64,000 bases of DNA, from the NCBI GenBank assembly GCA_963920595.1, contig OY986949.1, positions 620,001-684,000 of the forward strand, read 5' to 3'. Below the pieces are notes generated by a model, which had not been told where the DNA came from, searched no databases, and worked only from the letters and a program-made list of their open reading frames with translations. Position numbers and translations under genes: made by a program. Position 1 is the stretch's first letter; every line of letters starts with the position of its first letter. This document shows positions 1 to 57,500 of the stretch, one piece after another. The DNA comes from Eimeria praecox (lineage: Eukaryota).

Positions 1-125
1 TCTACCTGCAGCAGTATAAGCAGGCATGATTTGCTTGTTCATTTCCTTTTGACAGCATTCAAGCCATAATATTCGTTTCCCTCCCCTGCTCTGCTTTTAC
101 TGCCTGTCTTCCGCCTTGTCTGCAG

Positions 126-208
126 ACACCTCGGAGACAGAAAATGCTTCGTGTAGTACCCCACCAGAAGATTATGCGCTCCGTCGGAAGCTTATTGGGC
201 ATTGCTAG
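126..208 (+). CDS. Putative last coding exon of the preceding gene copy, which starts upstream of the window
   Basis: A pyrimidine-rich acceptor (ctgcctgtcttccgccttgtctgcag) ends at 125, followed by (D)TSETENASCSTPPEDYALRRKLIGHC*. Equivalent to 7899-7981. Confidence 0.4.
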
Positions 209-32151: not shown

Positions 32152-32250
32152 AATACGTAGGATACTTATCCTTGCGTTGCACCTTTCCAAGTGTTGTTGC
32201 TGCTAGACTAGTTCATGCACTACACAGTCAGCACGCACAATGTTGCATGG
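32152..32250. other. 99-bp segment present only in units 5 and 6 (second instance 40009-40107)
   Basis: Units 1-4 read catctgg|gtttggcaaag. Units 5-6 read catctgg-aatacgtagg...gttgcatgg-atttggcaaag, with TGG microhomology at both ends. Confidence 0.95.
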
Positions 32251-34830: not shown

Positions 34831-37800
34831 ATGACGCTCATAAGCTACCCGCTACATAGGGCATGTACCCTACTAGCTCTCCTTGGTGTCTTTGGGGGTT
34901 CTGAGGCAAATTACATGCCAAGCTCCTCATCAGGACTCTCCGCGCAGGAGCAGTTCACTAGAGAAGAGCCCGGACAGCTTCTAGACGGAAGTGCGCCATA
35001 CTTGATTTATTGCTTACTCTGCTGAGTGCTTGAGCATCAGATAGTTTCAGTTCATATTGCATGAACATTCTTCAGGTGTTCATGGAATGGGCCGGGTCAT
35101 TCTGTTCCTCGTTGTGTCTCCCGTTACCTCTCAGAAATTCCGCGTAACGACGGCGGTGGCTTTCGTAGTGGTGGTCAGAAGAGCAGTGATGGCGGCTTCG
35201 GGGAGGAGAAGGAAACTCCTCCGCATGAGTATCCCGAGATGGCAGCTATACCAATGATGGCTGAAGCCGTCTTGGAGGACTGCGAGGATGAGGAAGAAGA
35301 GAAAGAAGAAGAAACTTCAGGCAGCACAAGGAGTAGCGATGAATCTTCGTCAAAAGAAGCTGACGAAGCTGCTTCGTTCAGAAAGGTACAGACATATAAC
35401 ACAACGGAGAGCGGTCCTCATCTGTTTGGTAGTAAAGGAATCCCCTGCTCTGGATGCACGGCCTCTAATGTTCAACCAGTCGCACAGCGGAAGACTTACC
35501 GGAGAACACCTGCTCATGCGCACCAGCTGCATGCACAAAGGAGTGTGAAAGTGCTTCATGATCGTTCCTGCAATGAGGCTACATCGGGAAAGCAGACGAC
35601 CCTTCGTAGGAATCAGCCGCACAGTGAGGGAGCACCACGGAATCCACAGGTTTACCGCTTTGAAGGAAATGCGACTCATTTGAATATCCCGATAATTCGC
35701 CGAGCGTCTGGTCCGCAAGACACGGGAGAGCTGGAAGGCACAACCCGCAACTGTACCAGCAAGGACTTTCCACAGGGCACCCGAGTCGCCTACAGGGCCC
35801 GATATCCACGCGGAACAGGCACTCCTAAGGGATGCCTTCAAGAGAGGGTTTCCTCTCCACAAGTCTCTCACGTGGTTAAGAGAGAGCATTATTCGTCCGA
35901 TATGGGTGCAACTGAAGCAGAAGAGTACTGCACTGATGGCTGTCAGCAAGCCGTCCCACATGCTTTCATCGTTAGATGCCCACGCAGAACAGGCACGCCT
36001 CAGGGGTGCCTTCACAGGAGAGAGCATTCTCCACAAATCGTTCGTTCTGCCCGGACATTGGACTATCCCTCCGGTGTGCATGAATCTGAAGCAGAGCAAT
36101 ATTATCGTGGCCGCTGTAGGCAAGCAACTCGCGGGAGATACAGGGCTCGATATCCATGCGGAACAGGCACGCCTCAGGGAAGCCTTCACAGGAGAGACGC
36201 CTCACAACAAACATTTCATCAGTTTAAAGGCGCCACCCAGCAACATGGCAATGGCGCACCTGTTCCAAGCATGCGCAGCAGCGGGATGCATCTACCAAGC
36301 ACTCGGCCAAACCCTGGTACTCGGTTTCCACGAAGAACTGGCACACCGCAGGGAAGCCTTCAAAGGCTAGTTACCCCTCTGCAAAGGCCCCAATCAGTGC
36401 AGGTTCTCCATAGCCAGCACAGTAGCATCTCTCCTGAATCGCAAGTACGCATAGACGAAGAATGTCCGCAGGCGACACAATTGGCCCGCAGGGATCGGTG
36501 CCCACAAGGAACAGGCACGCCTCAGGGATGCCTTCGCAGGAGGGAACCCCCCGTACAAATCTCTCACATGGTTCAAGAAACCCCTTATTCTACCGAGATG
36601 GACTTGCCTGAAAGCGAAGCATACAACAGTGACGACTGTTCGCAAGCCTTGCGTGGGACTTGGACGGATCCATTGCCATGCGCAGCAGGCGTGTTTCAGG
36701 GATGCCTTTGCATGAGGGAAGCCTCACCGCAACCCCCCCAAGCAGTTCAAGATCCCCCAGATGCAAGCGGCACGTGTACATCCGAAGGAAAAACATTCAG
36801 TGGAGAGACGTCTTCAACCAGTTTTCGCGAGGCCTTCACCGCTCGCTATTTTGCAGAAGCACGCATGGCGGAGACAGGTGCCGATAGTGACTTTGACTTT
36901 CAGTGGGATGACGGTGAGGAAAATGACGAACTCATTTCCCTTGCTTGTGAGGCGGTCACAAAGTCAAGCTTATCACCATTGCAACAGCGGCAAAAGAGAA
37001 CAGACGAACCTCAACAGAGCTGTCGAACTAACAGGTTCGAAGAGACTGTCCCAGCTGCCAATCAAAGGCAGGCCTTAGAAGCTGTCGACCCCTTCCAGAT
37101 TGTGAGATTCTGTTCAATGTGCTGGCTGTACGGCCTTAGCAGCTGCCTTCGTGAGCGCATGAGCAACACCCATACCAATGCATATCATTGCATATTGTTT
37201 TGCGGCAATTCAAAGTTTGCTTCTGGTTCCCGTTGTTTTGGGTTTGCAGCGAACACAAGAGACTCCCCAATATGCTATCGCCCCGCAAACAGATGGCCAG
37301 GACAAGCAGCAACAGGCGCACCAGCAGCAGAGCAGGATTGCACTATTAGGTTTGCCTCACACAGCAGTTGGGAGCACAAATTCTAAGTGGAGCACCTCTT
37401 GCGAGAATACAGGTCTTCTCGACCCGTCGGGGATTTGGAGTTCTAAGTGGGTGCCAGATTTCCCTGGGAATCCTGCCTGGGAAGGGGTAGGAAGTGCCAA
37501 CAGTACACATTTTTCGGTGGGACGTCAGGAGGATGATTGTTGGGGACGACGAAGGCACGAGGAGGTCTCGAGTTCTAATAGCGATTCAAATCGTTGTCTG
37601 CAACATCCGGCTACGCCTGACGAACAGACGCAGATGCCGGGCCTTAGTACACATACAGTTAATCCTTTTCAGTTACCACAAGTTGCACAGGCTGCAGGTG
37701 GATGTGACCATTGTGGCATTTCGTCATCAATGAACTCAGGGAAAACATCATCATCTCCATCACATGGCATTACATCAGAGAATTCAGGGACCACTTCACA

Positions 37801-39176
37801 AAGTCCCTTCAAACAAGGCCAAGCTGGCCTAGGAAATTTGAGCTGCTGTCTATCAGCTGGTACCTTCTTGCAATCTCCCAGGTTAGGGCCCGACTTACGT
37901 GCTGCTCTGTTGTCGACATCGTGGGCCGCTTCCTGCGATTTAGCAGGCCTTGATAAAGGGGTTGTGGGATGCAACCCTGAGCACGTGGAACCTGAGTCCT
38001 ACGACTCATCCCACATGTCAGCGGACACTGAACAGCACGATAGCAGGGCAATGAAAGGCCCATTGCTCAGATCCGCGCAAGCTAACGATCTACTCGGCCC
38101 AGCGGGTGGCAGCGAGTGCTCTCGCGCTGACCTTGGCAATGCACAGCAAGCTCCTAAGGATTCTCCTGCGCCTCAAGACAACTCTCCAGAGGCCTTGTCA
38201 CCATTTTGGCTTGGAGACGATCCTGTCCTAGAGCTGGTACAGAAATCTCAGTTTGCTTCTATTGGGGCATACATACTTGCGAAGCCATCAAAGGGTTCAG
38301 CAAAGTTGCAGGAAGGCACTTCGAAAACTTCATCGCTCCCGGACGGTGTTGTACCTAGGTCTCGTGAATCGCCAGAAGTCGCCAGTAGACTGAGCGAAGG
38401 TCCTCTACGTCTTCAGGAAGAACGAAGATCACCAATACTTACGGTTTCAGGCGGCATTGATGCGCTTCCAGCATATCATGCAAATTATACTCTGGAGGTA
38501 CGCCAGCCACACCCAAGTCATATATAAGCTAAACAAGTATTAGGCATGCATAAATGAAATGAAGCATTGAATTTGTACCTGTCCTAGATGGGTGCTTCCC
38601 TATCCACGCCGAGCTTCATCAGCAGAACTGGTGAATGCGCGTCATACCTCCTAGCATTTGCGAAAATACAAGCATCTACCTGTCCCCCTGGTCTGTCCAG
38701 CGTTCCCAAACTGTGTGCGGGCTTCGTCCATTAGTAATGGGGCACGAACATGAACCAGATAGGCAGCACAATGCCTCACAAGCAACGCAGGCACCGGACG
38801 CGGCATTATCGAGAGTTCCAATGAGCGTGGTGAAGATAGAGCAGACTCCAAGTAGTATTGTGCCAAACTGTGAAGAATCAGAACTCTTGGATTGCTTTTC
38901 ACCTGCATTACATCACAAACAAGAGTCCGTCCCAGGTGGCCGTAACCGCCAGCCAGTTCTTTTCTACCTGCAGCAGTATAAGCAGGCATGATTTGCTTGT
39001 TCATTTCCTTTTGGCAGCATTCAAGCCATAATATTCGTTTCCCTCCCCTGCTCTGCTTTTACTGCCTGTCTTCCGCCTTGTCTGCAGACACCTCGGAGAC
39101 AGAAAATGCTTCGTGTAGTACCCCACCAGAAGATTATGCGCCCCGTCGCATTGCTAGCTTGAGATTGCAAGCCTAG
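34831..39176 (+). pseudogene. Copy 5 of the hypothetical gene: exons 1-3 intact, putative exons 4-5 disrupted
   Basis: A 2-bp deletion near 38680 (cctgtgtcccc to cctgtcccc) and a 13-bp deletion near 39148 fall in the proposed 3' exons. Pseudogene status depends on the 3' exon model being right. Confidence 0.45.
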
Positions 39177-42100
39177 TTTCCTAGTCGTATCGACGCCACT
39201 GCAAATTTATGAATAGTGACAAGCAGAACGTTGCACGAGCGACGCAGAGCCCAGGAGCAGCAGCTGTTCCGTCAGTTGCTGCGTCAGGGATGAATTGCTT
39301 CAGCACTGGTTAGGTCGTGGATGCCAGCCGGCCAGCCTCAGCAAGCCCATACTCCCTTAATTATGCACTTACATGGACCACAATTGTTTTTCAAAGCGGA
39401 CGAGCCTTGCATCCTATTGGAGAGCATGCTGGTGTGCCCTCGTCGCCTCAGGCGGTACCTGGCCCACCTTCCTTCATTTACCATGAACAGCTTGCTGCCT
39501 GTTGCAGTCTAAGGTTGCCGACTCTGCATGGTGCATTCCACTGCGTGCCACTTATCAATGTTATGTTGAGTGCAACAAAGCCTTGATCTAGTATGGGAAG
39601 GGACTAGGGAAACATAAATCTATGTGGACTGCCCAATCAACAAAATCGGAATACATGCGTTGAACGTAGACGTATTGATGTGATATGAAACTCCGAAGTT
39701 GCCGTGCTTTGTCCTTGGCATAAACAGGACTCGAGCTTTGCAACGATAGGTAATAGATTACTTATATACTCGAGGGTGACAAACAGAACTGCATATGAGG
39801 TCATCACAGCAGCCAAAGGGTTACAGGAAGCGAACATTTAACTCAGCTGCATTGCACTTGGTTGCTGCAGCTATTGGGAGAGCCTGTCTTTCTACAGTTA
39901 AGTGTAACATTAATTCAACTCACCAGCCCCTGCATGGGTGCTCCTCTAGTCAAATGCTTGCCGTAAAGCGCAAAGGCTCTCCACGGAAACCCTGTAATAT
40001 TCATCTGGAATACGTAGGATACTTATCCTTGCGTTGCACCTTTCCAAGTGTTGTTGCTGCTAGACTAGTTCATGCACTACACAGTCAGCACGCACAATGT
40101 TGCATGGATTTGGCAAAGCGTTGCCAAGGGAATTGTGTATCGCTTGCGAAGTACTGCGCAACTAACCGGGTGTCCGGCAGCCTGGAAACTTCCCTTGTTT
40201 TGGAGGCCGCAGATGGGGGTAAGGTTGCACTAGCGTTGGTGTCTGAAGAACCTGTGTCGAGCAATCCAGTTCGTTGCTCTACGGAGATATAGCCACTGGC
40301 GAGAGAAAGTGACCTCGCCGTACAGACGATTTAAGGGGCACCTGATGAGGCAAGGCTGCTTCCCTGGGTTTTAATCAGGAGCGAGCGAGAGCTGGATCTA
40401 TGGCCAGACATACTTTGTATTTCCCCATAGATTCTGCCTGCCACTCGCCTCTAATAGCCTGCAAATAATGAGACGAAATCTTGGCCGACGGTATTTGTTT
40501 CCGTGAGAACGGAGAAGATCTGGACTACCCAGCCCAAAGCAATGGCATCACCTCCAATTTTGCGCTGCTGGAGGTGCCCACTGTTTCGCTATCACTGGAC
40601 CAGCCATCAACGCAGCAATGAAATGACGGCGTGTATATCTGAGCCCACGAGGCAAAGGGTGCAAGCATGACTGCCTACTCACTAAGGAAGGAAAGCGCAT
40701 GCTCAGTCACGTCACCACCGATAGCATGAGTGGTTAAGCCAGCGCAGGCAAAACCCAGCACAGACCGGCTCGCATCTTCTGTTACACACACGGCCTTCAG
40801 CACCTGTGACAGTACGCAAAGACCCCATTTCTGCTTCGCGTCCGCGCAGTAAACACAAATTATCAGCATTGTCATGTGATGTTTCTACCGCACTTTCGCT
40901 TGAAAGGACGATGCAGATTTAGGGAGTGAAACGGGCACTGAACCAATATTATGCTCTGAGCATGGGGCTACAGCGTCACGAAAATTCCGAGGCGCAGTGG
41001 AAAAGCCACGAGATTGTGCATATCCTACTCTGCATTAGAACAACGCGGAGGTGCGTAAATGCTTAAACACCCGCAACTCAAGATGGCCACTTGCCATTCA
41101 TGCTGTGAAGAGAAAGATACAAAAGGGAAGGCACGTGTAGTCCATGCAATAGTGCAATAGACGAGGTACCCAGCAGTGTTCTGTTTCGTTCTGCTTCTGA
41201 ACAGCGCAGAGTACACAGTGCTCCCTTACTCATGCATGTTTTAGATATATGGAGGGATTATCTAGCTTAGAGGTGGATGCCGGATGAGAGCGCGATGCCT
41301 TGTGCAGCTGCTAGAGTGAGTCATCTCATATTTTAGGGACACTACAGGAGGGGCAGAAGGAGAGCGGAAGCCTGCTGCAGTGTCACTGCCCCTTTCACGA
41401 CCCGAAACAAGACCCTTCGTTAAAGGTGAAACAATGGATTAATCCAGAATATATCGTGCAGTGTGGTGAGCTGCATGAAGGAGCTTTTCTTTCTAATATC
41501 TGCACCCTAATGCTTGATGATGTCCACTCCTGACTGGTTCGCGAGGAATAACCCAACGAAAAGGTGCGTCAGGAGGACACTACATGTACCACTTTTCGCC
41601 TCGAAATTTTCGGTTTGGCTCAATCGTAAAGCGGGCCCTTATGCTTACACTAGCTGGCTGTCTGAGGGGTAAGCTGCTGCTCCATGGTTGTGCACGAGTC
41701 CCCTGAGGGGCCCTAGTGACCCATATTCACGAGGTTTGTGTGCAAGCCATCTGCATCTTTAAGTTCTCATCAGAACATTGCCAGAATTGAAATTGGACTG
41801 CATTGAAAACCATCAAGGTGCTTCTGCTGTGGCTAGGGAAGAGCTGCAGGAAACGACGCATTGGGGCACGAAGCCCTTCCAATGTGACTTGCTACCAATC
41901 ACCTGGCCACAATAGATCAGGCCTTTTCCGTCCATTACAAGTGCAGTAAACATATCAAGTGTTAGGATTAATTGATCAAAATTCAAATATAATCAAGGAA
42001 GACCGCCTTCAGGATGCAACGAAGCTCCAACCGAACGCCCGAGGTCCCGGGCCTCGCTTGCCGACAGACCCTAGCCCACTGGACTGATGTCACGCTACCC

Positions 42101-42687
42101 GCCTCGCGGCTAGCTTGTGGCCTTGTCCACTTTAATCAGTTTCGCTCTCAATCACCTGCAAATATCCGAATTAACAAGCAAACAAAGTATTGCCTTTTTC
42201 AAAACCTTTTGTTTTTTCAATATTATTATCGCGTTAGCGTCTGTGTCTGCAAAGCAGCGAGTGTCCTGCCATCGACAGCCCAGGCAATTATCTTCGGAAA
42301 CAACTTTCGTCACGCTATCTGCTTCTCTCACCGCTTCTAACCGTCTGAATATTATAGTCTGCTGTGAGGTCTTTCATCCTCACCAAGGTAAGAAGGCAAG
42401 AATTCCCTCCACGGCTGCGAGCCTTTACCCAGCAAAGCGAATTCTTAGTGTCTTTGGTCAGAATCTTTGGCGCCTTCGGTCACTGGGTGCACTCCTACAC
42501 GCCTTGATGAAGCCGCTATCCTCATAGCTCCTTTACGCCCATTGGATGTTTTGTACATCACTCAAGTAGCAAAGTTTGGACCTTAGGACATGGTGTACGC
42601 GCCACAGGCCCACTCAATGTCCATCGTGTGCTCTGCCTTTGGCCTGTCATCCGCAGCCTGGACGGAAACTACTGAAACTACTGGAGA

Positions 42688-43476
42688 ATGATGCTCATAA
42701 GCTACCCGCTACATAGGGCATGTACCCTACTAGCTCTCCTTGGTGTCTTTGGGGGTTCTGAGGCAAATTACATGCCAAGCTCCTCATCAGGACTCTCCGT
42801 GCAGGAGCAGTTCACTAGAGAAGAGCCCGGACAGCTTCTAGACGGAAGTACGCCATGCTTGATTTATTGCTTACTCTGCTGAGTGCTTGAGCATCAGATA
42901 GTTTCAGTTCATATTGCATGAACATTCTTCAGGTGTTCATGGAATGGGCCGGGTCATTCTGTTCCTCGTTGTGTCTCCCGTTACCTCTCAGAAATTCCGC
43001 GTAACGACGGCGGTGGCTTTCGTAGTGGTGGTCAGAAGAGCAGTGATGGCGGCTTCGGGGAGGAGAAGGAAACTCCTCCGCATGAGTATCCCGAGATGGC
43101 AGCTATACCAATGATGGCTGAAGCCGTCTTGGAGGACTGCGAGGATGAGGAAGAAGAGAAAGAAGAAGAAACTTCAGGCAGCACAAGGAGTAGCGATGAA
43201 TCTTCGTCAAAAGAAGCTGACGAAGCTGCTTCGTTCAGAAAGGTACAGACATATAACACAACGGAGAGCGGTCCTCATCTGTTTGGTAGTAAAGGAATCC
43301 CCTGCTCTGGATGCACGGCCTCTAATGTTCAACCAGTCGCACAGCGGAAGACTTACCGGAGAACACCTGCTCATGCGCACCAGCTGCATGCACAATCGGG
43401 AAACCTGCATGGGCCAACCTTGAAGCCGAAGGAAAGATTTGTGGAGGATCTTCCCTTTTCCGACGCCCATTCTTAG
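42688..43476 (+). pseudogene. Copy 6: 5' fragment of the gene fused to the satellite
   Basis: Exon 1, intron 1 (donor gtacgc) and the start of exon 2 are retained. Identity to the unit stops at 43395. The frame continues SGNLHGPTLKPKERFVEDLPFSDAHS* into satellite sequence (stop at 43476). Confidence 0.85.
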
Positions 43477-43911
43477 GCACCACTTGACGGATCCCCAACT
43501 ATACGCATCCAGCAGCGACGAAGCCGCCCAGTCTACCCACCCACCTGCAATACTCGATCCCCAATCGACCCAAACGCGACTCAACGGCGCCGTTGCAGCA
43601 GGAAAGCATCTCCACAAATCTTTTACTCGGATTCAAGCTTCGGCTATTCACCGCAAGGTGCATGGGCCAACCTTGAAGCCGAAGGAAAGATTTGTGGAGA
43701 ATCTTCCCTTCTCCGACGCCCATTCTTAGGCACCACTTGACGGATCCCCAACTATACGCATCCAGCAGCGACGAAGCCGCCCAGTCTACCCACCCACCTG
43801 CAATACTCGATCCCCAACCGACCCAAACGCGACTCAACGGCGCCGTTGCAGAAGCCAAGCATCTCCACAAATCTTTTACTCGGCTTCAAGCTTCGGCTAT
43901 TCTCCTGGCCT
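43406..43911 (+). repeat. Two ~253-bp sub-repeats at the satellite start; the same 253/258-bp sub-repeat occurs about twice inside each 943-bp unit
   Basis: tgcatgggccaaccttgaagccgaaggaaagatttgtggag occurs at 43406 and 43659; ORF starts 43439 and 43692 are 253 apart. Confidence 0.93.
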
Positions 43912-44405
43912 CCGCCAGCCCGAAGCAGATGCATATTGCCGTGACCACTCTCCGCAAGCAACAGAAACGAGATGCAGGACCCACTCTCCACAACAAACTG
44001 ACACGCCTCAGGGATGCTTCCACGGGACACACACATCCGAAGACGTCTTCTTCTTCTGTCCATTGCTAAATGCTCCTCAGCAGCGCGAAAACGACCCTCT
44101 CGGTGCAAACCATACGCAGCAGTGGCGCGCATCCATCAAACATTCAACCAGGCCCCGCTATTCCAGTGCCACTACCAAAACCCACTCCGCAGCGAAGAAG
44201 CCTCCAAGCACTAGGTGAACTTCCTCAAACGAACCAGCAGCTACCCTGGCCCTTGTCAAAGGCGCGTCATGCGCTTTCAACAGATTGCTTCCGGAGAGTC
44301 ATCGCGGCAGTATGCATCTGCTTCGGGCTGGCGCACGCATGGTGAAGGGTCTAACCTTGAAGCCGAAGGAAAGATTTGTGGAGACGTTTTCCTTTTCCCG
44401 ACGCC
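43839..44405. repeat. ~120-bp imperfect inverted repeat (arms 43839-43961 and 44285-44405, spacer 323 bp), repeated along the satellite
   Basis: 43913-43961 matches the reverse complement of 44285-44333 at 44 of 49 nt. The + strand reads SPQIFYSASSFGYSPGLRQPEADAYCRDHSPQA and the - strand reads SPQIFPSASRLDPSPCVRQPEADAYCRDDSPEA. Confidence 0.93.
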
Positions 44406-44523
44406 CACGCTTAGGCAACGCTGGACGGATCCACAACTATACGCATGCAGCAGCGACGAGGAATCCCAGCCTACCCACCCACATGAAATACTCGATCCCC
44501 AACCGACCCCGACACACCTCAAA

Positions 44524-44658
44524 GGCGTCGTTGCAGAAGGGAAGCATCTCCACAAATCTTTTACTCGGCTTCAAGCTTCGGCTATTCACCGCAAGGTGCA
44601 TGGACCAACCTTGAAGCCGAAGGAAAGATTTGTGGAGAATCTTCCCTTCTCCGACGCC
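44524..44658. repeat. ~135-nt imperfect palindrome (fold-back hairpin) with cacc-GCAA-ggtg apex at 44591-44594; one per standard satellite unit
   Basis: The left arm ggcgtcg..agaagggaag..tctccacaaatcttt..tcggcttcaag pairs with the right arm cttgaagccga..aaagatttgtggaga..cttcccttct..cgacgcc. The register is ungapped out to agaagggaag/cttcccttct. Confidence 0.93.
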
Positions 44659-47600
44659 CATTCTGAGGCACCACTTGACGGATCGGATCCCCAACTATAC
44701 GCATCCAGCAGCGACGAAGCCGCCCAGTCTACCCACCCACATGAAATACTCGATCCCCAACCGACCCAAACGCGACTCAACGGCGTCGTCGCAGAAGCGA
44801 AGCATCTCCACAAATCTTTTACTCGGCTTCAAGCTTCGGCTATTCTCCTGGCCTCCGCCAGCCCGATGCAGATGCATATTGCCGTGACCACTCTCCGCAA
44901 GCAACAGAAACGAGATGCAGGACCCACTCTCCACAACAAACTGACACGCCTCAGGGATGCCTCCACGGGACACACACATCCGAAGACGTCTTCTTCTTCT
45001 GTCCATTGCTAAATGCTCCTCAGCAGCGCGAAAACGACCCTCTCGGTGCAAACCATACGCAGCAGTGGCGCGCATCCATCAAACATTCAACCAGGCCCCA
45101 CTATTCCAGTGCCACTACCAAAACCCACTCCGCAGCGAAGAAGCCTCCAAGCATTAGATGAACTTCCTCAAACGAACCAGCAGCTACCCTGGCCCTTGTC
45201 AAAGGCGCGTCATGCGCTTTCAACAGATTGCTTCCGGAGAGTCATCACGGCAGTATGCATCTGCTTCGGGCTGGCGCACGCATGGTGAAGGGTCTAACCT
45301 TGAAGCCGAAGGAAAGATTTGTGGAGACGTTTTCCTTTTCCCGACGCCCACGCTTAGGCAACGCTGGACGGATCCACAACTATACGCATGCAGCAGCGAC
45401 GAGGAATCCCAGCCTACCCACCCACATGAAATACTCGATCCCCAACCGACCCCGACACACCTCAACGGCGTCGTTGCAGAAGGGAAGCTTCTCCACAAAT
45501 CTTTTACTCGGCTTCAAGCTTCGGCTATTCACCGCAAGGTGCATGGACCAACCTTGAAGCCCAAGGAAAGATTTGTGGAGAATCTTCCCTTCTCCGACGC
45601 CCATTCTGAGGCACCACTTGACGGATCGGATCCCCAACTATACGCATCCAGCAGCGACGAAGCCGCCCAGTCTACCCACCCACATGAAATACTCGATCCC
45701 CAACCGACCCAAACGCGACTCAACGGCGTCGTCGCAGAAGCGAAGCATCTCCACAAATCTTTTACTCGGCTTCAAGCTTCGGCTATTCTCCTGGCCTCCG
45801 CCAGCCCGATGCAGATGCATATTGCCGTGACCACTCTCCGCAAGCAACAGAAACGAGATGCAGGACCCACTCTCCACAACAAACTGACACGCCTCAGGGA
45901 TGCCTCCACGGGACACACACATCCGAAGACGTCTTCTTCTTCTGTCCATTGCTAAATGCTCCTCAGCAGCGCGAAAACGACCCTCTCGGTGCAAACCATA
46001 CGCAGCAGTGGCGCGCATCCATCAAACATTCAACCAGGCCCCGCTATTCCAGTGCCACTACCAAAACCCACTCCGCAGCGAAGAAGCCTCCAAGCACTAG
46101 GTGAACTTCCTCAAACGAACCAGCAGCTACCCTGGCCCTTGTCAAAGCCGCGTCATGCGCTTTCAACAGATTGCTTCCGGAGAGTCATCGCGGCAGTATG
46201 CATCTGCTTCGGGCTGGCGCACGCATGGTGAAGGGTCTAACCTTGAAGCCGAAGGAAAGATTTGTGGAGACGTTTTCCTTTTCCCGACGCCCACGCTTAG
46301 GCAACGCTGGACGGATCCACAACTATACGCATGCAGCAGCGACGAGGAATCCCAGCCTACCCACCCACATGAAATACTCGATCCCCAACCGACCCCGACA
46401 CACCTCAAAGGCGTCGTTGCAGAAGGGAAGCATCTCCACAAATCTTTTACTCGGCTTCAAGCTTCGGCTATTCACCGCAAGGTGCATGGACCAACCTTGA
46501 AGCCGAAGGAAAGATTTGTGGAGAATCTTCCCTTCTCCGACGCCCATTCTGAGGCACCACTTGACGGATCGGATCCCCAACTATACGCATCCAGCAGCGA
46601 CGAAGCCGCCCAGTCTACCCACCCACCTGCAATACTCGATCCCCAACCGACCCAAACGCGACTCAACGGCGCCGTCGCAGCAGGGAAGCATCTCCACAAA
46701 TCTTTTACTCGGCTTCAAGCTTCGGCTATTCTCCTGGCCTCCGCCAGCCCGAAGCAGATGCATATTGCCGTGACCACTCTCCGCAAGCAACAGAAACGAG
46801 ATGCAGGACCCACTCTCCACAACAAACTGACACGCCTCAGGGATGCTTCCACGGGACACACACATCCGAAGACGTCTTCTTCTTCTGTCCATTGCTAAAT
46901 GCTCCTCAGCAGCGCGAAAACGACCCTCTCGGTGCAAACCATACGCAGCAGTGGCGCGCATCCATCAAACATTCAACCAGGCCCCGCTATTCCAGTGCCA
47001 CTACCAAAACGCACTCCGCAGCGAAGAAGCCTCCAAGCACTAGGTGAACTTCCTCAAACGAACCAGCAGCTACCCTGGCCCTTGTCAAAGGCGCGTCATG
47101 CGCTTTCAACAGATTGCTTCCGGAGAGTCATCGCGGCAGTATGCATCTGCTTCGGGCTGGCGCACGCATGGTGAAGGGTCTAACCTTGAAGCCGAAGGAA
47201 AGATTTGTGGAGACGTTTTCCTTTTCCCGACGCCCACGCTTAGGCAACGCTGGACGGATCCACAACTATACGCATGCAGCAGCGACGAGGAATCCCAGCC
47301 TACCCACCCACATGAAATACTCGATCCCCAACCGACCCCGACACACCTCAACGGCGTCGTTGCAGAAGGGAAGCATCTCCACAAATCTTTTACTCGGCTT
47401 CAAGCTTCGGCTATTCACCGCAAGGTGCATGGACCAACCTTGAAGCCCAAGGAAAGATTTGTGGAGAATCTTCCCTTCTCCGACGCCCATTCTGAGGCAC
47501 CACTTGACGGATCGGATCCCCAACTATACGCATCCAGCAGCGACGAAGCCGCCCAGTCTACCCACCCACATGAAATACTCGATCCCCAACCGACCCAAAC

Positions 47601-50600
47601 GCGACTCAACGGCGTCGTCGCAGAAGCGAAGCATCTCCACAAATCTTTTACTCGGCTTCAAGCTTCGGCTATTCTCCTGGCCTCCGCCAGCCCGATGCAG
47701 ATGCATATTGCCGTGACCACTCTCCGCAAGCAACAGAAACGAGATGCAGGACCCACTCTCCACAACAAACTGACACGCCTCAGGGATGCCTCCACGGGAC
47801 ACACACATCCGAAGACGTCTTCTTCTTCTGTCCATTGCTAAATGCTCCTCAGCAGCGCGAAAACGACCCTCTCGGTGCAAACCATACGCAGCAGTGGCGC
47901 GCATCCATCAAACATTCAACCAGGCCCCGCTATTCCAGTGCCACTACCAAAACCCACTCCGCAGCGAAGAAGCCTCCAAGCACTAGGTGAACTTCCTCAA
48001 ACGAACCAGCAGCTACCCTGGCCCTTGTCAAAGCCGCGTCATGCGCTTTCAACAGATTGCTTCCGGAGAGTCATCGCGGCAGTATGCATCTGCTTCGGGC
48101 TGGCGCACGCATGGTGAAGGGTCTAACCTTGAAGCCGAAGGAAAGATTTGTGGAGACGTTTTCCTTTTCCCGACGCCCACGCTTAGGCAACGCTGGACGG
48201 ATCCACAACTATACGCATGCAGCAGCGACGAGGAATCCCAGCCTACCCACCCACATGAAATACTCGATCCCCAACCGACCCCGACACACCTCAAAGGCGT
48301 CGTTGCAGAAGGGAAGCATCTCCACAAATCTTTTACTCGGCTTCAAGCTTCGGCTATTCACCGCAAGGTGCATGGACCAACCTTGAAGCCGAAGGAAAGA
48401 TTTGTGGAGAATCTTCCCTTCTCCGACGCCCATTCTGAGGCACCACTTGACGGATCGGATCCCCAACTATACGCATCCAGCAGCGACGAAGCCGCCCAGT
48501 CTACCCACCCACCTGCAATACTCGATCCCCAACCGACCCAAACGCGACTCAACGGCGCCGTCGCAGCAGGTAAGCATCTCCACAAATCTTTTACTCGGCT
48601 TCAAGCTTCGGCTATTCTCCTGGCCTCCGCCAGCCCGAAGCAGATGCATATTGCCGTGACCACTCTCCGCAAGCAACAGAAACGAGATGCAGGACCCACT
48701 CTCCACAACAAACTGACACGCCTCAGGGATGCTTCCACGGGACACACACATCCGAAGACGTCTTCTTCTTCTGTCCATTGCTAAATGCTCCTCAGCAGCG
48801 CGAAAACGACCCTCTCGGTGCAAACCATACGCAGCAGTGGCGCGCATCCATCAAACATTCAACCAGGCCCCGCTATTCCAGTGCCACTACCAAAACCCAC
48901 TCCGCAGCGAAGAAGCCTCCAAGCACTAGGTGAACTTCCTCAAACGAACCAGCAGCTACCCTGGCCCTTGTCAAAGCCGCGTCATGCGCTTTCAACAGAT
49001 TGCTTCCGGAGAGTCATCGCGGCAGTATGCATCTGCTTCGGGCTGGCGCACGCATGGTGAAGGGTCTAACCTTGAAGCCGAAGGAAAGATTTGTGGAGAC
49101 GTTTTCCTTTTCCCGACGCCCACGCTTAGGCAACGCTGGACGGATCCACAACTATACGCATGCAGCAGCGACGAGGAATCCCAGCCTACCCACCCACATG
49201 AAATACTCGATCCCCAACCGACCCCGACACACCTCAACGGCGTCGTTGCAGAAGGGAAGCATCTCCACAAATCTTTTACTCGGCTTCAAGCTTCGGCTAT
49301 TCACCGCAAGGTGCATGGGCCAACCTTGAAGCCGAAGGAAAGATTTGTGGAGAATCTTCCCTTCTCCGACGCCCATTCTGAGGCACCACTTGACGGATCG
49401 GATCCCCAGCTATACGCATCCAGCAGCGACGAAGCCGCCCAGTCTACCCACCCACCTGCAATACTCGATCCCCAACCGACCCAAACGCGACTCAACGGCG
49501 TCGTCGCAGAAGCCAAGCATCTCCACAAATCTTTTACTCGGCTTCAAGCTTCGGCTATTCTCCTGGCCTGCGCCAGCCCGAAGCAGATGCATATTGCCGT
49601 GACCACTCTCCGCAAGCAACAGAAACGAGATGCAGGACCCACTCTCCACAACAAACTGACACGCCTCAGGGATGCTTCCACGGGACACACACATCCGAAG
49701 ACGTCTTCTTCTTCTGTCCATTGCTAAATGCTCCTCAGCAGCGCGAAAACGACCCTCTCGGTGCAAACCATACGCAGCAGTGGCGCGCATCCATCAAACA
49801 TTCAACCAGGCCCCGCTATTCCAGTGCCACTACCAAAACCCACTCCGCAGCGAAGAAGCCTCCAAGCACTAGGTGAACTTCCTCAAACGAACCAGCAGCT
49901 ACCCTGGCCCTTGTCAAAGGCGCGTCATGCGCTTTCAACAGATTGCTTCCGGAGAGTCATCACGGCAGTATGCATCTGCTTCGGGCTGGCGCACGCAAGG
50001 TGAAGGGTCTAACCTTGAAGCCGAAGGAAAGATTTGTGGAGACGTTTTCCTTTTCCCGACGCCCACGCTTAGGCAACGCTGGACGGATCCACAACTATAC
50101 GCATGCAGCAGCGACGAGGAATCCCAGCCTACCCACCCACATGAAATACTCGATCCCCAACCGACCCCGACACACCTCAAAGGCGTCGTTGCAGAAGGGA
50201 AGCATCTCCACAAATCTTTTACTCGGCTTCAAGCTTCGGCTATTCACCGCAAGGTGCATGGACCAACCTTGAAGCCGAAGGAAAGATTTGTGGAGAATCT
50301 TCCCTTCTCCGACGCCCATTCTGAGGCACCACTTGACGGATCGGATCCCCAACTATACGCATCCAGCAGCGACGAAGCCGCCCAGTCTACCCACCCACCT
50401 GCAATACTCGATCCCCAACCGACCCAAACGCGACTCAACGGCGCCGTCGCAGCAGGGAAGCATCTCCACAAATCTTTTACTCGGATTCAAGCTTCGGCTA
50501 TTCTCCTGGCCTCCGCCAGCCCGAAGCAGATGCATATTGCCGTGACCACTCTCCGCAAGCAACAGAAACGAGATGCAGGACCCACTCTCCACAACAAACT

Positions 50601-52701
50601 GACACGCCTCAGGGATGCTTCCACGGGACACACACATCCGAAGACGTCTTCTTCTTCTGTCCATTGCTAAATGCTCCTCAGCAGCGCGAAAACGACCCTC
50701 TCGGTGCAAACCATACGCAGCAGTGGCGCGCATCCATCAAACATTCAACCAGGCCCCGCTATTCCAGTGCCACTACCAAAACGCACTCCGCAGCGAAGAA
50801 GCCTCCAAGCACTAGGTGAACTTCCTCAAACGAACCAGCAGCTACCCTGGCCCTTGTCAAAGGCGCGTCATGCGCTTTCAACAGATTGCTTCCGGAGAGT
50901 CATCGCGGCAGTATGCATCTGCTTCGGGCTGGCGCACGCATGGTGAAGGGTCTAACCTTGAAGCCGAAGGAAAGATTTGTGGAGACGTTTTCCTTTTCCC
51001 GACGCCCACGCTTAGGCAACGCTGGACGGATCCACAACTATACGCATGCAGCAGCGACGAGGAATCCCAGCCTACCCACCCACATGAAATACTCGATCCC
51101 CAACCGACCCCGACACACCTCAACGGCGTCGTTGCAGAAGGGAAGCATCTCCACAAATCTTTTACTCGGCTTCAAGCTTCGGCTATTCACCGCAAGGTGC
51201 ATGGGCCAACCTTGAAGCCGAAGGAAAGATTTGTGGAGAATCTTCCCTTCTCCGACGCCCATTCTGAGGCACCACTTGACGGATCGGATCCCCAGCTATA
51301 CGCATCCAGCAGCGACGAAGCCGCCCAGTCTACCCACCCACCTGCAATACTCGATCCCCAACCGACCCAAACGCGACTCAACGGCGTCGTCGCAGAAGCC
51401 AAGCATCTCCACAAATCTTTTACTCGGCTTCAAGCTTCGGCTATTCTCCTGGCCTGCGCCAGCCCGAAGCAGATGCATATTGCCGTGACCACTCTCCGCA
51501 AGCAACAGAAACGAGATGCAGGACCCACTCTCCACAACAAACTGACACGCCTCAGGGATGCTTCCACGGGACACACACATCCGAAGACGTCTTCTTCTTC
51601 TGTCCATTGCTAAATGCTCCTCAGCAGCGCGAAAACGACCCTCTCGGTGCAAACCATACGCAGCAGTGGCGCGCATCCATCAAACATTCAACCAGGCCCC
51701 GCTATTCCAGTGCCACTACCAAAACCCACTCCGCAGCGAAGAAGCCTCCAAGCACTAGGTGAACTTCCTCAAACGAACCAGCAGCTACCCTGGCCCTTGT
51801 CAAAGGCGCGTCATGCGCTTTCAACAGATTGCTTCCGGAGAGTCATCACGGCAGTATGCATCTGCTTCCGGCTGGCGCACGCAAGGTGAAGGGTCTAACC
51901 TTGAAGCCGAAGGAAAGATTTGTGGAGACGTTTTCCTTTTCCCGACGCCCACGCTTAGGCAACGCTGGACGGATCCACAACTATACGCATGCAGCAGCGA
52001 CGAGGAATCCCAGCCTACCCACCCACATGAAATACTCGATCCCCAACCGACCCCGACACACCTCAACGGCGTCGTTGCAGAAGGGAAGCATCTCCACAAA
52101 TCTTTTACTCGGCTTCAAGCTTCGGCTATTCACCGCAAGGTGCATGGACCAACCTTGAAGCCCAAGGAAAGATTTGTGGAGAATCTTCCCTTCTCCGACG
52201 CCCATTCTGAGGCACCACTTGACGGATCGGATCCCCAGCTATACGCATCCAGCAGCGACGAAGCCGCCCAGTCTACCCACCCACCTGCAATACTCGATCC
52301 CCAACCGACCCAAACGCGACTCAACGGCGTCGTCGCAGAAGCCAAGCATCTCCACAAATCTTTTACTCGGCTTCAAGCTTCGGCTATTCTCCTGGCCTCC
52401 GCCAGCCCGAAGCAGATGCATATTGCCGTGACCACTCTCCGCAAGCAACAGAAACGAGATGCAGGACCCACTCTCCACAACAAACTGACACGCCTCAGGG
52501 ATGCCTCTGCGGGACACACACATCCGAAGACGTCTTCTTCTTCTGTCCATTGCTAAATGCTCCTCAGCAGCGCGAAAACGACCCTCTCGGTGCAAACCAT
52601 ACGCAGCAGTGGCGCGCATCCATCAAACATTCAACCAGGCCCCGCTATTCCAGTGCCACTACCAAAACGCACTCCGCAGCGAAGAAGCCTCCAAGCACTA
52701 G

Positions 52702-53897
52702 GTGAACTTCCTCAAACGAACCAGCAGCTACCCTGGCCCTTGTCAAAGGCGCGTCATGCGCTTTCAACAGATTGCTTCCGGAGAGTCATCACGGCAGTAT
52801 GCATCTGCTTCGGGCTGGCGCACGCATGGTGAAGGGTCTAACCTTGAAGCCGAAGGAAAGATTTGTGGAGACGTTTTCCTTTTCCCGACGCCCACTCTTA
52901 GGCAACGCTAGACGGATCCACAACTATACGCATGCAGCAGCGACGAGGAATCCCAGCCTACCCACCCACATGAAATACTCGATCCCCAACCGACCCCGAC
53001 ACACCTCAACGGCGTCGTTGCAGAAGGGAAGCTTCTCCACAAATCTTTTACTCGGCTTCAAGCTTCGGCTATTCACCGCAAGGTGCATGGACCAACCTTG
53101 AAGCCCAAGGAAAGATTTGTGGAGAATCTTCCCTTCTCCGACGCCCATTCTGAGGCAACACTTGACGGATCGGATCCCCAACTATACGCATCCAGCAGCG
53201 ACGAAGCCGCCCAGTCTACCCACCCACCTGCAATACTCGATTCCCAACCGACCCCGACACACCTCAACGGCGTCGTTGCAGAAGGGAAGCATCTCCACAA
53301 ATCTTTTACTCGGCTTCAAGCTTCGGCTATTCACCGCAAGGTGCATGGACCAACCTTGAAGCCCAAGGAAAGATTTGTGGAGAATCTTCCCTTCTCCGAC
53401 GCCCATTCTGAGGCAACACTTGACGGATCATCAACTACACGGATGCAGCAGCGACGAAGCCGCCCAGTCTACCCACCCACCTGCAATACTCGGTCCCCAA
53501 CCGACCCAAACGCGACTCAACGGCGTCGTCGCAGAAGCCAAGCATCTCCACAAATCTTTTACTCGGCTTCAAGCTTCGGCTATTCTCCTGGCCTCCGCCA
53601 GCCCGAAGCAGATGCATATTGCCGTGACCACTCTCCGCAAGCAACAGAAACGAGATGCAGGACCCACTCTCCACAACAAACTGACACGCCTCAGGGATGC
53701 TTCCACGGGACACACACATCCGAAGACGTCTTCTTCTTCTGTCCATTGCTAAATGCTCCTCAGCAGCGCGAAAACGACCCTCTCGGTGCAAACCATACGC
53801 AGCAGTGGCGCGCATCCATCAAACATTCAACCAGGCCCCGCTATTCCAGTGCCACTACCAAAACGCACTCCGCAGCGAAGAAGCCTCCAAGCACTAG
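52702..53897 (+). repeat. 1196-bp long satellite variant (extra 253-bp sub-repeat, two hairpins); second instance 58575-59770
   Basis: Marker spacing is 1196 = 943+253. GCAA apices lie at 53078 and 53336. Confidence 0.95.
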
Positions 53898-54513
53898 GTG
53901 AACTTCCTCAAACGAACCAGCAGCTACCCTGGCCCTTGTCAAAGGCGCGTCATGCGCTTTCAACAGATTGCTTCCGGAGAGTCATCACGGCAGTATGCAT
54001 CTGCTTCGGGCTGGCGCACGCAAGGTGAAGGGTCTAACCTTGAAGCCGAAGGAAAGATTTGTGGAGACGTTTTCCTTTTTCCGACGCCCACGCTTAGGCA
54101 ACGCTGGACGGATCCACAACTATACGCATGCAGCAGCGGAGCCGTCGCAGAAGCGAAGCATCTCCACAAATCTTTTACTCGGCTTCAAGCTTCGGCTATT
54201 CTCCTGGCCTGCGCCAGCCCGAAGCAGATGCATATTGCCGTGACCACTCTCCGCAAGGAACAGAAACGAGATGCAGGACCCACTCTCCACAACAAACTGA
54301 CACGCCTCAGGGATGCCTCCACGGGACACACACATCCGAAGACGTCTTCTTCTTCTGTCCATTGCTAAATGCTCCTCAGCAGCGCGAAAACGACCCTCTC
54401 GGTGCAAACCATACGCAGCAGTGGCGCGCATCCATCAAACATTCAACCAGGCCCCGCTATTCCAGTGCCACTACCAAAACCCACTCCGCAGCGAAGAAGC
54501 CTCCAAGCACTAG
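53898..54513 (+). repeat. 616-bp short satellite variant (327-bp deletion removing the GCAA hairpin); also 56400-57015 and 57016-57631
   Basis: Marker spacing is 616. The same novel junction gcatgcagcagcggagccgtcgcagaag is seen near 54138, 56640 and 57256. Confidence 0.95.
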
Positions 54514-57500
54514 GTGAACTTCCTCAAACGAACCAGCAGCTACCCTGGCCCTTGTCAAAGCCGCGTCATGCGCTTTCAACAGATTGCTTCCGGAGAGTCA
54601 TCGCGGCAGTATGCATCTGCTTCGGGCTGGCGCACGCATGGTGAAGGGTCTAACCTTGAAGCCGAAGGAAAGATTTGTGGAGACGTTTTCCTTTTCCCGA
54701 CGCCCACGCTTAGGCAACGCTGGACGGATCCACAACTATACGCATGCAGCAGCGACGAGGAATCCCAGCCTACCCACCCACATGAAATACTCGATCCCCA
54801 ACCGACCCCGACACACCTCAACGGCGTCGTTGCAGAAGGGAAGCATCTCCACAAATCTTTTACTCGGCTTCAAGCTTCGGCTATTCACCGCAAGGTGCAT
54901 GGGCCAACCTTGAAGCCGAAGGAAAGATTTGTGGAGAATCTTCCCTTCTCCGACGCCCATTCTGAGGCACCACTTGACGGATCGGATCCCCAGCTATACG
55001 CATCCAGCAGCGACGAAGCCGCCCAGTCTACCCACCCACCTGCAATACTCGATCCCCAACCGACCCAAACGCGACTCAACGGCGTCGTCGCAGAAGCCAA
55101 GCATCTCCACAAATCTTTTACTCGGCTTCAAGCTTCGGCTATTCTCCTGGCCTGCGCCAGCCCGAAGCAGATGCATATTGCCGTGACCACTCTCCGCAAG
55201 CAACAGAAACGAGATGCAGGACCCACTCTCCACAACAAACTGACACGCCTCAGGGATGCCTCCACGGGACACACACATCCGACGACGTCTTCTTCTTCTG
55301 TCCATTGCTAAATGCTCCTCAGCAGCGCGAAAACGACCCTCTCGGTGCAAACCATACGCAGCAGTGGCGCGCATCCATCAAACATTCAACCAGGCCCCGC
55401 TATTCCAGTGCCACTACCAAAACGCACTCCGCAGCGAAGAAGCCTCCAAGCACTAGGTGAACTTCCTCAAACGAACCAGCAGCTACCCTGGCCCTTGTCA
55501 AAGGCGCGTCATGCGCTTTCAACAGATTGCTTCCGGAGAGTCATCACGGCAGTATGCATCTGCTTCGGGCTGGCGCACGCATGGTGAAGGGTCTAACCTT
55601 GAAGCCGAAGGAAAGATTTGTGGAGACGTTTTCCTTTTCCCGACGCCCACGCTTAGGCAACGCTGGACGGATCCACAACTATACGCATGCAGCAGCGACG
55701 AGGAATCCCAGCCTACCCACCCACATGAAATACTCGATCCCCAACCGACCCCGACACACCTCAACGGCGTCGTTGCAGAAGGGAAGCATCTCCACAAATC
55801 TTTTACTCGGCTTCAAGCTTCGGCTATTCACCGCAAGGTGCATGGACCAACCTTGAAGCCGAAGGAAAGATTTGTGGAGAATCTTCCCTTCTCCGACGCC
55901 CATTCTGAGGCACCACTTGACGGATCGGATCCCCAGCTATACGCATCCAGCAGCGACGAAGCCGCCCAGTCTACCCACCCACCTGCAATACTCGATCCCC
56001 AACCGACCCAAACGCGACTCAACGGCGTCGTCGCAGAAGCCAAGCATCTCCGCAAATCTTTTACTCGGCTTCAAGCTTCGGCTATTCTCCTGGCCTCCGC
56101 CAGCCCGAAGCAGATGCATATTGCCGTGACCACTCTCCGCAAGCAACAGAAACGAGATGCAGGACCCACTCTCCACAACAAACTGACACGCCTCAGGGAT
56201 GCCTCCACGGGACACACACATCCGAAGACGTCTTCTTCTTCTGTCCATTGCTAAATGCTCCTCAGCAGCGCGAAAACGACCCTCTCGGTGCAAACCATAC
56301 GCAGCAGTGGCGCGCATCCATCAAACATTCAACCAGGCCCCGCTATTCCAGTGCCACTACCAAAACCCACTCCGCAGCGAAGAAGCCTCCAAGCACTAGG
56401 TGAACTTCCTCAAACGAACCAGCAGCTACCCTGGCCCTTGTCAAAGGCGCGTCATGCGCTTTCAACAGATTGCTTCCGGAGAGTCATCACGGCAGTATGC
56501 ATCTGCTTCGGGCTGGCGCACGCAAGGTGAAGGGTCTAACCTTGAAGCCGAAGGAAAGATTTGTGGAGACGTTTTCCTTTTCCCGACGCCCACGCTTAGG
56601 CAACGCTGGACGGATCCACAACTATACGCATGCAGCAGCGGAGCCGTCGCAGAAGCGAAGCATCTCCACAAATCTTTTACTCGGCTTCAAGCTTCGGCTA
56701 TTCTCCTGGCCTGCGCCAGCCCGAAGCAGATGCATATTGCCGTGACCACTCTCCGCAAGCAACAGAAACGAGATGCAGGACCCACTCTCCACAACAAACT
56801 GACACGCCTCAGGGATGCTTCCACGGGACACACACATCCGAAGACGTCTTCTTCTTCTGTCCATTGCTAAATGCTCCTCAGCAGCGCGAAAACGACCCTC
56901 TCGGTGCAAACCATACGCAGCAGTGGCGCGCATCCATCAAACATTCAACCAGGCCCCGCTATTCCAGTGCCACTACCAAAACCCACTCCGCAGCGAAGAA
57001 GCCTCCAAGCACTAGGTGAACTTCCTCAAACGAACCAGCAGCTACCCTGGCCCTTGTCAAAGGCGCGTCATGCGCTTTCAACAGATTGCTTCCGGAGAGT
57101 CATCACGGCAGTATGCATCTGCTTCGGGCTGGCGCACGCAAGGTGAAGGGTCTAACCTTGAAGCCGAAGGAAAGATTTGTGGAGACGTTTTCCTTTTCCC
57201 GACGCCCACGCTTAGGCAACGCTGGACGGATCCACAACTATACGCATGCAGCAGCGGAGCCGTCGCAGAAGCGAAGCATCTCCACAAATCTTTTACTCGG
57301 CTTCAAGCTTCGGCTATTCTCCTGGCCTGCGCCAGCCCGAAGCAGATGCATATTGCCGTGACCACTCTCCGCAAGCAACAGAAACGAGATGCAGGACCCA
57401 CTCTCCACAACAAACTGACACGCCTCAGGGATGCTTCCACGGGACACACACATCCGAAGACGTCTTCTTCTTCTGTCCATTGCTAAATGCTCCTCAGCAG

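What the first reader, a model, noticed from the sequence alone, without database searches (positions are those of the whole stretch)
44782..45155. The 943-bp satellite is homologous to the neighbouring gene's 174-bp coding repeat
Seen: satellite 44805-44966 aligns without gaps to gene 4837-4998; tctccacaaatc and acgcctcaggga sit at the same offset of 39968. Translations are SPQIFYSASSFGYSPGLRQPEADAYCRDHSPQATETRCRTHSPQQTDTPQGCLH versus SPQIVRSARTLDYPSGVHESEAEQYYRGRCRQATRGRYRARYPCGTGTPQGSLH, 25 of 54 identical by hand count. After a frameshift the similarity continues collinearly (VQTIRSSGAHPSNIQPGP...PQRRSLQAL versus VPSMRSSGMHLPSTRPNP...PQGSLQRL), following gene repeats 2, 3 and 4 in order. 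The sub-repeat also reads TRSPTDPDTPQRRRCRREASPQI, resembling the gene core. Inference: either a diverged paralogue's exon was scrambled and amplified into more than 20 kb of satellite, or an old 174-bp repeat was recruited into the protein. The divergence is far greater than that among the 7.8-kb units, so the satellite did not derive recently from these copies.
Basis: partly seen in the sequence, partly recalled or inferred. Interest (0 to 1): 0.9.

Follow-up and report, generated by a model that had tools for sequence, protein, structure and literature searches.

The report
Satellite built from dead parasite gene
In the chicken parasite Eimeria praecox, a repeat array of more than 20 kb is built from a broken, partly inverted piece of the same gene family as the predicted secreted-protein genes beside it, so it is likely a dead gene copy that folded back on itself and was amplified into satellite DNA.

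Summary
The homology is real: 104/162 bases and 24/54 residues are identical; score 253 against 52±8 in shuffles, 0 of 300 reaching it. The window is Eimeria praecox. The neighbour is a spliced gene with a predicted signal peptide, whose homologues, where named, are all Eimeria. Direction is most likely gene to satellite: the satellite follows the gene's differentiated modules 2 then 3, an order also seen in a 45%-identical homologue, and all four satellite arms form one clade beside module 2. Each unit holds two inverted arms, about 80% complementary to the forward arms. The array begins inside a sixth, truncated gene copy that keeps its signal-peptide exon. Negative results: no codon signal in the divergence (P=0.45), weak support for module 4, no significant G·U bias, no perfect antisense 21-mer to the gene, no progenitor found. 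Best reading: a non-coding by-product of fold-back and unequal exchange. A hairpin-RNA role is possible but untested. The scan's look-ups showed no earlier finding of this.

The parts
1..43395 (+). Tandem array of 7773-bp units: five with a complete gene, and a sixth cut at 43395 (equivalent to position 4347 of unit 1)
   Evidence: self-BLAST 98-99.8%; long ORFs intact in 5 of 6 copies
3640..3799 (+). Exon 1 of gene copy 1, predicted signal peptide (hydrophobic N-terminus)
   Evidence: hydropathy and alignment to the E. mitis P0012 N-terminus; open spliced frame; splicing inferred, no RNA data
3944..5910 (+). Exon 2, encoding an acidic stretch and six 58-aa (174-bp) modules at 4624-5667; likely disordered
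   Evidence: P0002 follows it to the same end; AlphaFold mean pLDDT 31 from a 3-sequence alignment
6059..7336 (+). Downstream coding frame (exon 3 onward, end approximate), matching annotated E. praecox protein CDI79888.1
42688..43476 (+). Truncated gene copy 6: start codon, signal-peptide exon and first intron intact; the frame runs 26 codons into the satellite and stops (214 aa predicted)
   Evidence: ORF table
43396..43403 (+). 8-base filler at the gene/satellite junction; in the window it occurs otherwise only 45 bases further downstream in the five complete gene copies (likely a templated insertion)
   Evidence: contigs of X2 and X3 (one sample) cross the junction but with only 30 bases on the gene side
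43396..64000 (.). Satellite array, running off the window: 21 complete units between 44285 and 63612 (16 of 943 bp, 3 of 616 bp, 2 of 1196 bp) plus partial ends; 943-bp units differ by 9.7 bases on average
44426..44590 (+). Short forward arm f (tail of module 1 to start of module 2), 149/165 identical to the head of F
44591..44672 (-). Inverted arm R2; folds back on f around a 4-base loop (apex 44587-44598), 49 of 61 positions complementary
44693..45200 (+). Long forward block F: degenerate copy of gene 4724-5201 (module 2 at 44766-44939, module 3 at 44940-45117 with a frameshift, possible start of module 4)
45228..45380 (-). Inverted arm R1: reverse copy of the module-2 region, 89 of 113 positions complementary to F 44792-44904 (end approximate)

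Best explanation
The satellite unit is a frameshifted, partly inverted copy of repeat modules 2-3 of the neighbouring gene family, and it likely arose from an old duplicate of that gene that died, folded back on itself and was amplified into a non-coding array. Shown: the homology, the module order, the inverted arms, the sub-repeat, the 99% homogeneity, and the fusion to truncated copy 6. Inferred order of events: (1) a gene duplicate split off long ago (about 40% DNA divergence, as deep as the split among the gene's own modules 1, 2 and 5); (2) a fold-back or template-switch event made an inverted arm (arms now about 20% apart); (3) the arm-plus-forward piece was duplicated, giving the 258-bp sub-repeat (10-15% apart); (4) unequal exchange amplified and homogenised the unit (1% apart) and still produces 616- and 1196-bp variants; (5) a microhomology-type deletion with an 8-base templated filler joined the array to gene copy 6. 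Today it most likely behaves as ordinary heterochromatic satellite DNA with no sequence-specific action on the gene.
For: Shuffle tests. Segment-to-module scores put A on module 2 and B on module 3, and the best register scores 247 against 90-186 for the four shifted registers. Homologue P0002 keeps an open frame with the same A-B-C module order. In the DNA tree all four satellite arms form a clade (91/90) beside gene module 2 (82/88). The gene looks functional: 5 of 5 complete copies are open, 6 of 11 exon-2 differences are synonymous, and the signal exon is conserved in E. mitis. The satellite is also in run X1, from another study. The loose ends shown there are satellite-internal except for one low-depth 9.1-kb contig, which argues against dispersal (3 loose ends not shown).
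Against: There is no codon-position signal between satellite and gene: 26/24/30 differences by position, amino-acid identity P=0.45, so a long coding history of the progenitor is not shown. The protein module tree has no starred branch, and segment B groups with P0011 module 1 instead of the B modules. The DNA-tree support values (82/88, 91/90) fall below the tool's star threshold, and the tree is midpoint-rooted. No intact progenitor was found. The whole genome was not available. Heterochromatin and lack of function are assumed by analogy with Toxoplasma satellites, not tested.
Confidence: 0.68

Rival explanations
1. Same origin, but the array is functional as a tandem hairpin-RNA locus. Transcription from the intact start of truncated copy 6 would run into the inverted arms, giving double-stranded RNA and small RNAs that build heterochromatin over, or tune, the neighbouring gene array.
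For: One unit folds at -359 kcal/mol, z=-18.7 against 20 shuffles. Copy 6 keeps its start codon, exon 1 and intron 1. Toxoplasma satellites yield small RNAs and lie in heterochromatin (PMC2877743, passages). Argonaute is reported in each chicken Eimeria species (PMC9353057, passages). The D. simulans hp-tHMG cluster has a similar layout of paralogues, a truncated copy and tandem hairpins (PMC10317233, passages).
Against: Strong folding follows from any inverted duplication, and the minus strand folds better (-443). G·U against A·C pairs is 10:4, P=0.18. The longest perfect arm pairing is 15 bp. The best antisense 21-mers still have 2 mismatches to the gene (2 windows; 11 have 3), and the longest exact antisense match is 14 bases. 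[quoted passage not shown] No Rfam match.
Confidence: 0.13
2. An old non-coding 174-bp repeat or mobile element gave rise to both: it was recruited into the protein and separately amplified as satellite.
For: The divergence between satellite and gene carries no coding signature. Satellite module A is as far from module 2 (103/174) as the gene's modules 1, 2 and 5 are from each other (103-108/174).
Against: The satellite copies two different, already specialised modules in gene order, and 174-bp periodicity is not the satellite's own period (258 and 943 bp). The modules are in frame in P0002 and in paralogue P0011. Only one unique flank was seen in X1.
Confidence: 0.08
3. The dyad-rich array serves a structural chromosome role (centromeric or pericentromeric), and its genic origin is incidental.
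For: Monomer-scale dyad symmetry resembles Tribolium madens TmSat2 in putative (peri)centromeres (PMC13081366, passages). Toxoplasma sat529 is called centromeric in PMC9498087 (passages).
Against: Rough depth ratios suggest only about 50 units in X1, if the depth-52 contig is single copy, and one or few loci. That is too little for every chromosome. The array abuts and cuts an apparently active gene array.
Confidence: 0.06
4. The units are still coding: a repeated exon-intron cassette of a giant gene, or the junction or array is an assembly artefact.
For: Each unit holds open frames of 138-265 codons. No listed contig in X1 crosses the junction, and those in X2 and X3 have only 30 bases on the gene side, below the tool's bridging rule.
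Against: 943 is not a multiple of 3, the gene frame is shifted and ends in a stop, and half of each unit is antisense. Units carry 33 variable sites in shared haplotypes. The unit sequence is present in runs of two studies.
Confidence: 0.05

Closest known systems
Satellite DNA derived from pre-existing functional sequence (rDNA intergenic spacer, transposable elements; review PMC5615363, passages seen)
   Same: Long homogenised tandem array with a complex monomer, seeded by an existing genomic sequence and built by duplication and divergence cycles
   Different: The seed here is a protein-coding repeat exon of a predicted secreted parasite protein, and a living relative of the seed gene lies directly next to it. 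The passages seen name rDNA spacer and mobile elements as sources, not host exons.
Drosophila simulans hp-tHMG cluster and hp-CG4068 tandem hairpin-RNA loci (PMC10317233, passages seen)
   Same: Gene-derived inverted repeats, tandemly amplified, beside full-length and truncated paralogues
   Different: Those have near-perfect arms and Dcr-2-dependent siRNAs that match their targets. Here the arms are about 80% complementary, similarity to the gene is about 60%, and no RNA evidence exists.
Toxoplasma gondii sat350, sat529 and sat240 (PMC9498087, PMC2877743; passages seen)
   Same: Coccidian satellite arrays neighbouring multigene families of predicted secreted or membrane proteins
   Different: No genic origin is given in the passages seen ('derived' occurs 0 times in PMC9498087). 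No sequence comparison with these satellites was made here.
Tribolium madens TmSat2 (PMC13081366, passages seen)
   Same: Monomer of several hundred bases built from one ancestral subunit, with an internal large dyad symmetry
   Different: It is a megabase-scale (peri)centromeric satellite; no coding ancestor appears in the passages seen.
D4Z4 macrosatellite with DUX4 (recalled, from no call)
   Same: Gene-derived tandem array
   Different: D4Z4 units keep an intact ORF. That resembles the 7.8-kb array here, not the frameshifted and inverted 943-bp unit.

Membership tests
Satellite DNA (complex monomer) | Long head-to-tail array of near-identical monomers | tested here: met
   21 complete units over 19.3 kb, about 1% apart, running off the window
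Satellite DNA (complex monomer) | Non-coding monomer | tested here: inconclusive
   Gene frame shifted and stopped, unit length not a multiple of 3; but open frames up to 265 codons exist and no RNA run was available
Satellite DNA (complex monomer) | Heterochromatic state (H3K9 methylation) | not testable with these tools
   No chromatin data available
Hairpin-RNA (hpRNA) locus | Inverted repeat able to form a long duplex | tested here: met
   89/113 and 49/61 complementary positions; z=-18.7
Hairpin-RNA (hpRNA) locus | Near-perfect antisense complementarity to a target gene | tested here: not met
   Best antisense 21-mers have 2 mismatches, longest exact match 14 bases, tested against the neighbouring gene only
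Hairpin-RNA (hpRNA) locus | Transcribed and processed by Dicer into Argonaute-bound siRNAs | not testable with these tools
Dispersed mobile element (MITE-like) | Many copies with different unique flanks | tested here: not met
   Of the loose ends shown for X1 and X2, one is a unique flank and the rest are satellite-internal; 3 were not shown and contigs drop records
Eimeria-specific families esf1-esf6 (Reid et al. 2014), for the gene | Homologues listed as members in Dataset S1 | tested here: inconclusive
   The two E. mitis homologues (EMH_0096020, EMH_0013000) are absent from the lists; locus tags of the E. praecox and E. brunetti homologues were not known, so they were not checked
Centromeric satellite | CenH3 binding and presence on each chromosome | not testable with these tools

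The most novel reading that the evidence does not exclude
A parasite secreted-protein gene family has spawned its own tandem hairpin-RNA satellite. A dead paralogue folded back, was amplified about 50-fold and then captured the promoter of a truncated family member, so that it is transcribed whenever the family is on and feeds Argonaute-guided heterochromatin or feedback silencing over the adjacent gene array. It would be an apicomplexan counterpart of Drosophila gene-derived hpRNA clusters.
Probability: 0.12. Interest if true: 0.82.

Novelty: new variant of a known kind. Interest (0 to 1): 0.52.

Why it matters
The seed of a satellite is rarely recognisable. Here the progenitor family, the fold-back step, the sub-repeat step, ongoing unit-length variants and a recent junction can all be read in one locus, with nested divergences of about 40, 20, 10-15 and 1%. 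That gives a clean case of satellite birth from a host protein-coding exon in a coccidian. It also makes one question directly testable in Eimeria: whether repeat-derived small RNAs or heterochromatin control tandem arrays of secreted-protein genes. The roughly 50-copy repeat could also be tested as a sensitive PCR marker for E. praecox; its species specificity was not established here.

Tried and rejected
No whole genome is held for this window, so genome-wide dispersal and location could not be tested directly. No RNA holder was listed for the gene. Pfam: 0 of 5 window ORFs matched; 2 of 5 homologues had weak hits below the curated cut-off. Rfam: 0 matches in 1-46500. A search for longer homologues found none among 6689 candidates. 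A search for an intact progenitor with the satellite's own frame found none among 39 candidates, which is weak evidence. JGI metagenome scans gave no relative among 64 pattern matches and 0 exact matches to a 22-base satellite pattern. The ESM Atlas did not answer. The AlphaFold model was low confidence (pLDDT 31), so no fold search was run. The codon-constraint test was negative, the G·U bias test was not significant, and the transversion excess between arms was not significant (P=0.11). The idea that the 616-bp unit is ancestral was rejected: it reads as a 327-bp deletion from the 943-bp unit. My first intron acceptor was off by one base and was corrected. P0005 is an unrelated cluster member and was ignored; P0004-P0008 were left out of alignment A2 (3 of 8 rows kept). 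Literature: nine searches showed no description of this satellite or of a gene-derived satellite in Eimeria. Subscription papers are not covered, and file 1 of the PMC4199364 supplements was not searchable. The scan's own notes showed nothing relevant.

Full report
Setting. The first 43.4 kb of the window are tandem 7773-bp units, 98-99.8% identical, and the rest is satellite. The long ORF in each unit matches an annotated Eimeria praecox protein at 99% (P0001, CDI79888.1), so the window is E. praecox. No whole genome was held.

Observation. Smith-Waterman score 253 against 52±8 in 300 dinucleotide shuffles, none reaching it; protein score 129 against 45±6, none of 300 reaching it. The match extends over about 490 bases, with a 277-base ungapped diagonal at 59% followed by several indels that shift the frame.

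The gene. Splicing 3640-3799 to 3944-5910 gives an open 709-codon frame starting with a hydrophobic N-terminus. That start and the following motif align with E. mitis P0012. Exon 2 ends where homologue P0002 ends its similarity and where CDI79888.1 splices. Splicing is inferred; no RNA run could be laid. A profile search of 1.84 billion proteins found 7 hits; the five that carry a name are from E. praecox (2), E. mitis (2) and E. brunetti (1), and two are unnamed. No Pfam family passes its cut-off. The repeat region models as disordered, though from only three sequences. All five complete copies keep both long frames open, and 6 of 11 differences in exon 2 are synonymous, where about a quarter of sites are synonymous. 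The six modules are exactly 58 residues but differ in type: A-like (1, 2, 5), B (3), C (4) and a terminal one (6). P0002 shows the same A, B (four times), C order. The two E. mitis homologues are not in the esf1-6 lists of Reid et al. 2014 (PMC4199364, passages and supplement Dataset S1 part 1).

Direction. At DNA level, satellite segment A scores 121 with module 2 (next best 86) and B scores 118 with module 3 (next best 52), against nulls near 27. The in-register alignment beats the four shifted registers, 247 against 90-186. Segment C and the head do not beat their nulls. At protein level A is closest to module 2 and P0002 module 1 (82, 78), B to module 3 (78) and C to P0002 module 6 (41). 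In an 80-base DNA tree all four satellite arms form one clade (91/90) beside module 2 (82/88). The protein tree is poorly resolved and misplaces B. A repeat that gave rise to the protein would not be expected to carry two already specialised modules in gene order, so gene to satellite is the likely direction. Against a long coding history of the progenitor: differences fall 26/24/30 on the three codon positions, and amino-acid identity (27 of 71) is what the DNA identity predicts (26.1±2.8, P=0.45). The gene's own modules are also weakly constrained (dN/dS mostly 0.65-1.0), so this test has little power.

A unit reads F (forward, gene 4724-5201), R1 (inverted module-2 region), f (short forward) and R2 (inverted). 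F and R1 are complementary at 89 of 113 positions; f and R2 at 49 of 61, around a 4-base loop. R1 plus f, and R2 plus the head of F, make the 258-bp sub-repeat (about 85-90% alike). The array holds 16 units of 943 bp, 3 of 616 bp and 2 of 1196 bp between 44285 and 63612; the 943-bp units differ by 9.7 bases on average over 33 variable sites. The nested divergences (about 40, 20, 10-15 and 1%) give the inferred order: duplicate, fold back, sub-duplicate, amplify.

The sixth unit stops at 43395, before the repeats, and the satellite begins at once, near the f/R2 apex. Copy 6 keeps its start codon, signal exon and intron and would give a 214-residue product. An 8-base filler at the junction matches gene sequence 45 bases downstream and occurs nowhere else in the window, which suggests a template switch (inference; the motif was noticed after the fact). 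Contigs of X2 and X3, one sample, cross the junction with 30 bases on the gene side, one short of the tool's bridging rule; none is listed for X1. Copy 6 differs from the other copies at 38-57 of 3263 sites, while the first satellite unit is as close to the majority as internal ones.

Outside evidence. The unit is present in X1 and X2, from two studies. In X1 the gene contig has depth 545, the satellite block 2606, and a 9.1-kb contig that abuts a satellite piece at 44844 has depth 52. If 52 is single copy, that suggests about 10 gene copies and about 50 satellite units; the tool warns that depth is not a copy number. No X1 contig was laid at under 90% likeness (0 of 48) and only 5 of 247 in X2, so no intact close progenitor showed up; a protein search also found none. 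Only one unique flank was seen among the loose ends shown, which argues against a dispersed element.

Function. One unit folds far better than shuffles (z=-18.7), as any inverted duplication would. Tests for selection on an RNA duplex were negative or weak: G·U against A·C 10:4 (P=0.18), better folding on the minus strand, longest perfect stem 15 bp, and no antisense 21-mer with fewer than 2 mismatches to the gene. Toxoplasma satellites give small RNAs and are heterochromatic (PMC2877743, passages). Argonaute is reported in all chicken Eimeria, but Dicer only in E. tenella (PMC9353057, passages). I therefore favour an inert, probably heterochromatic satellite (0.68) over a hairpin-RNA regulator (0.13).

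Comparison and novelty. Satellites seeded by rDNA spacers and mobile elements are known (PMC5615363, passages), as are gene-derived tandem hairpin loci in Drosophila (PMC10317233, passages) and monomers with large dyads in Tribolium (PMC13081366, passages). Toxoplasma satellites lie beside secreted-protein families without a stated genic origin (PMC9498087, passages). PMC9141347 and PMC11912684 (passages) do not describe this repeat in the passages seen. Nine searches found no description of it; subscription papers and unseen supplements could hold one. Verdict: a real and well-resolved new variant of a known process, interest 0.52.

Noticed in passing
window 32152-32247 and 40009-40104: A 96-bp insertion is present only in the two 7.8-kb units nearest the satellite. 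These units also share many substitutions, so the array has a divergent satellite-proximal end.
   Followed up: partly
window 4505-5179 (+), and P0012: An alternative reading frame over the repeats stays open for 224 codons, and the E. mitis annotation P0012 appears to use that frame through its repeats. The satellite's 265-codon ORF is in the same alternative frame. This is probably a mis-annotation or a low stop-codon composition.
   Followed up: no
run X1, record 5, abutting window 44776-44844: A 9132-base contig at depth 52 joins the satellite at the f/R2 apex with a diverged version of that apex. It may be the other end of the array, in which case both ends lie at the same fold-back point. 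Only 30 bases of the flank were visible.
   Followed up: partly
window 44587-44598 and equivalents: The f/R2 hairpin closes with a 4-base GNRA-type loop (label recalled); the DNA hairpin folds at -43.5 kcal/mol over 132 bases, a candidate cruciform or break site.
   Followed up: partly
window 5378 onward, against CDI79888.1: The public annotation starts inside module 5 and omits the signal-peptide exon and most repeats. It sits on a 5.4-kb contig, so the tandem array was probably collapsed in that draft.
   Followed up: partly
window 4197-4349: Possible in-frame 153-base intron (GT start; ends in a TGCATG-like motif before AG). The copy-6 breakpoint falls two bases before its putative acceptor. 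Seen by eye, not tested.
   Followed up: no
satellite arms and units: Differences between arms and among satellite units are rich in transversions (F/R1 10 transitions to 14 transversions; units 15:17) compared with the 7.8-kb units (66:35); not significant for F/R1 against the pooled polymorphisms (P=0.11).
   Followed up: partly
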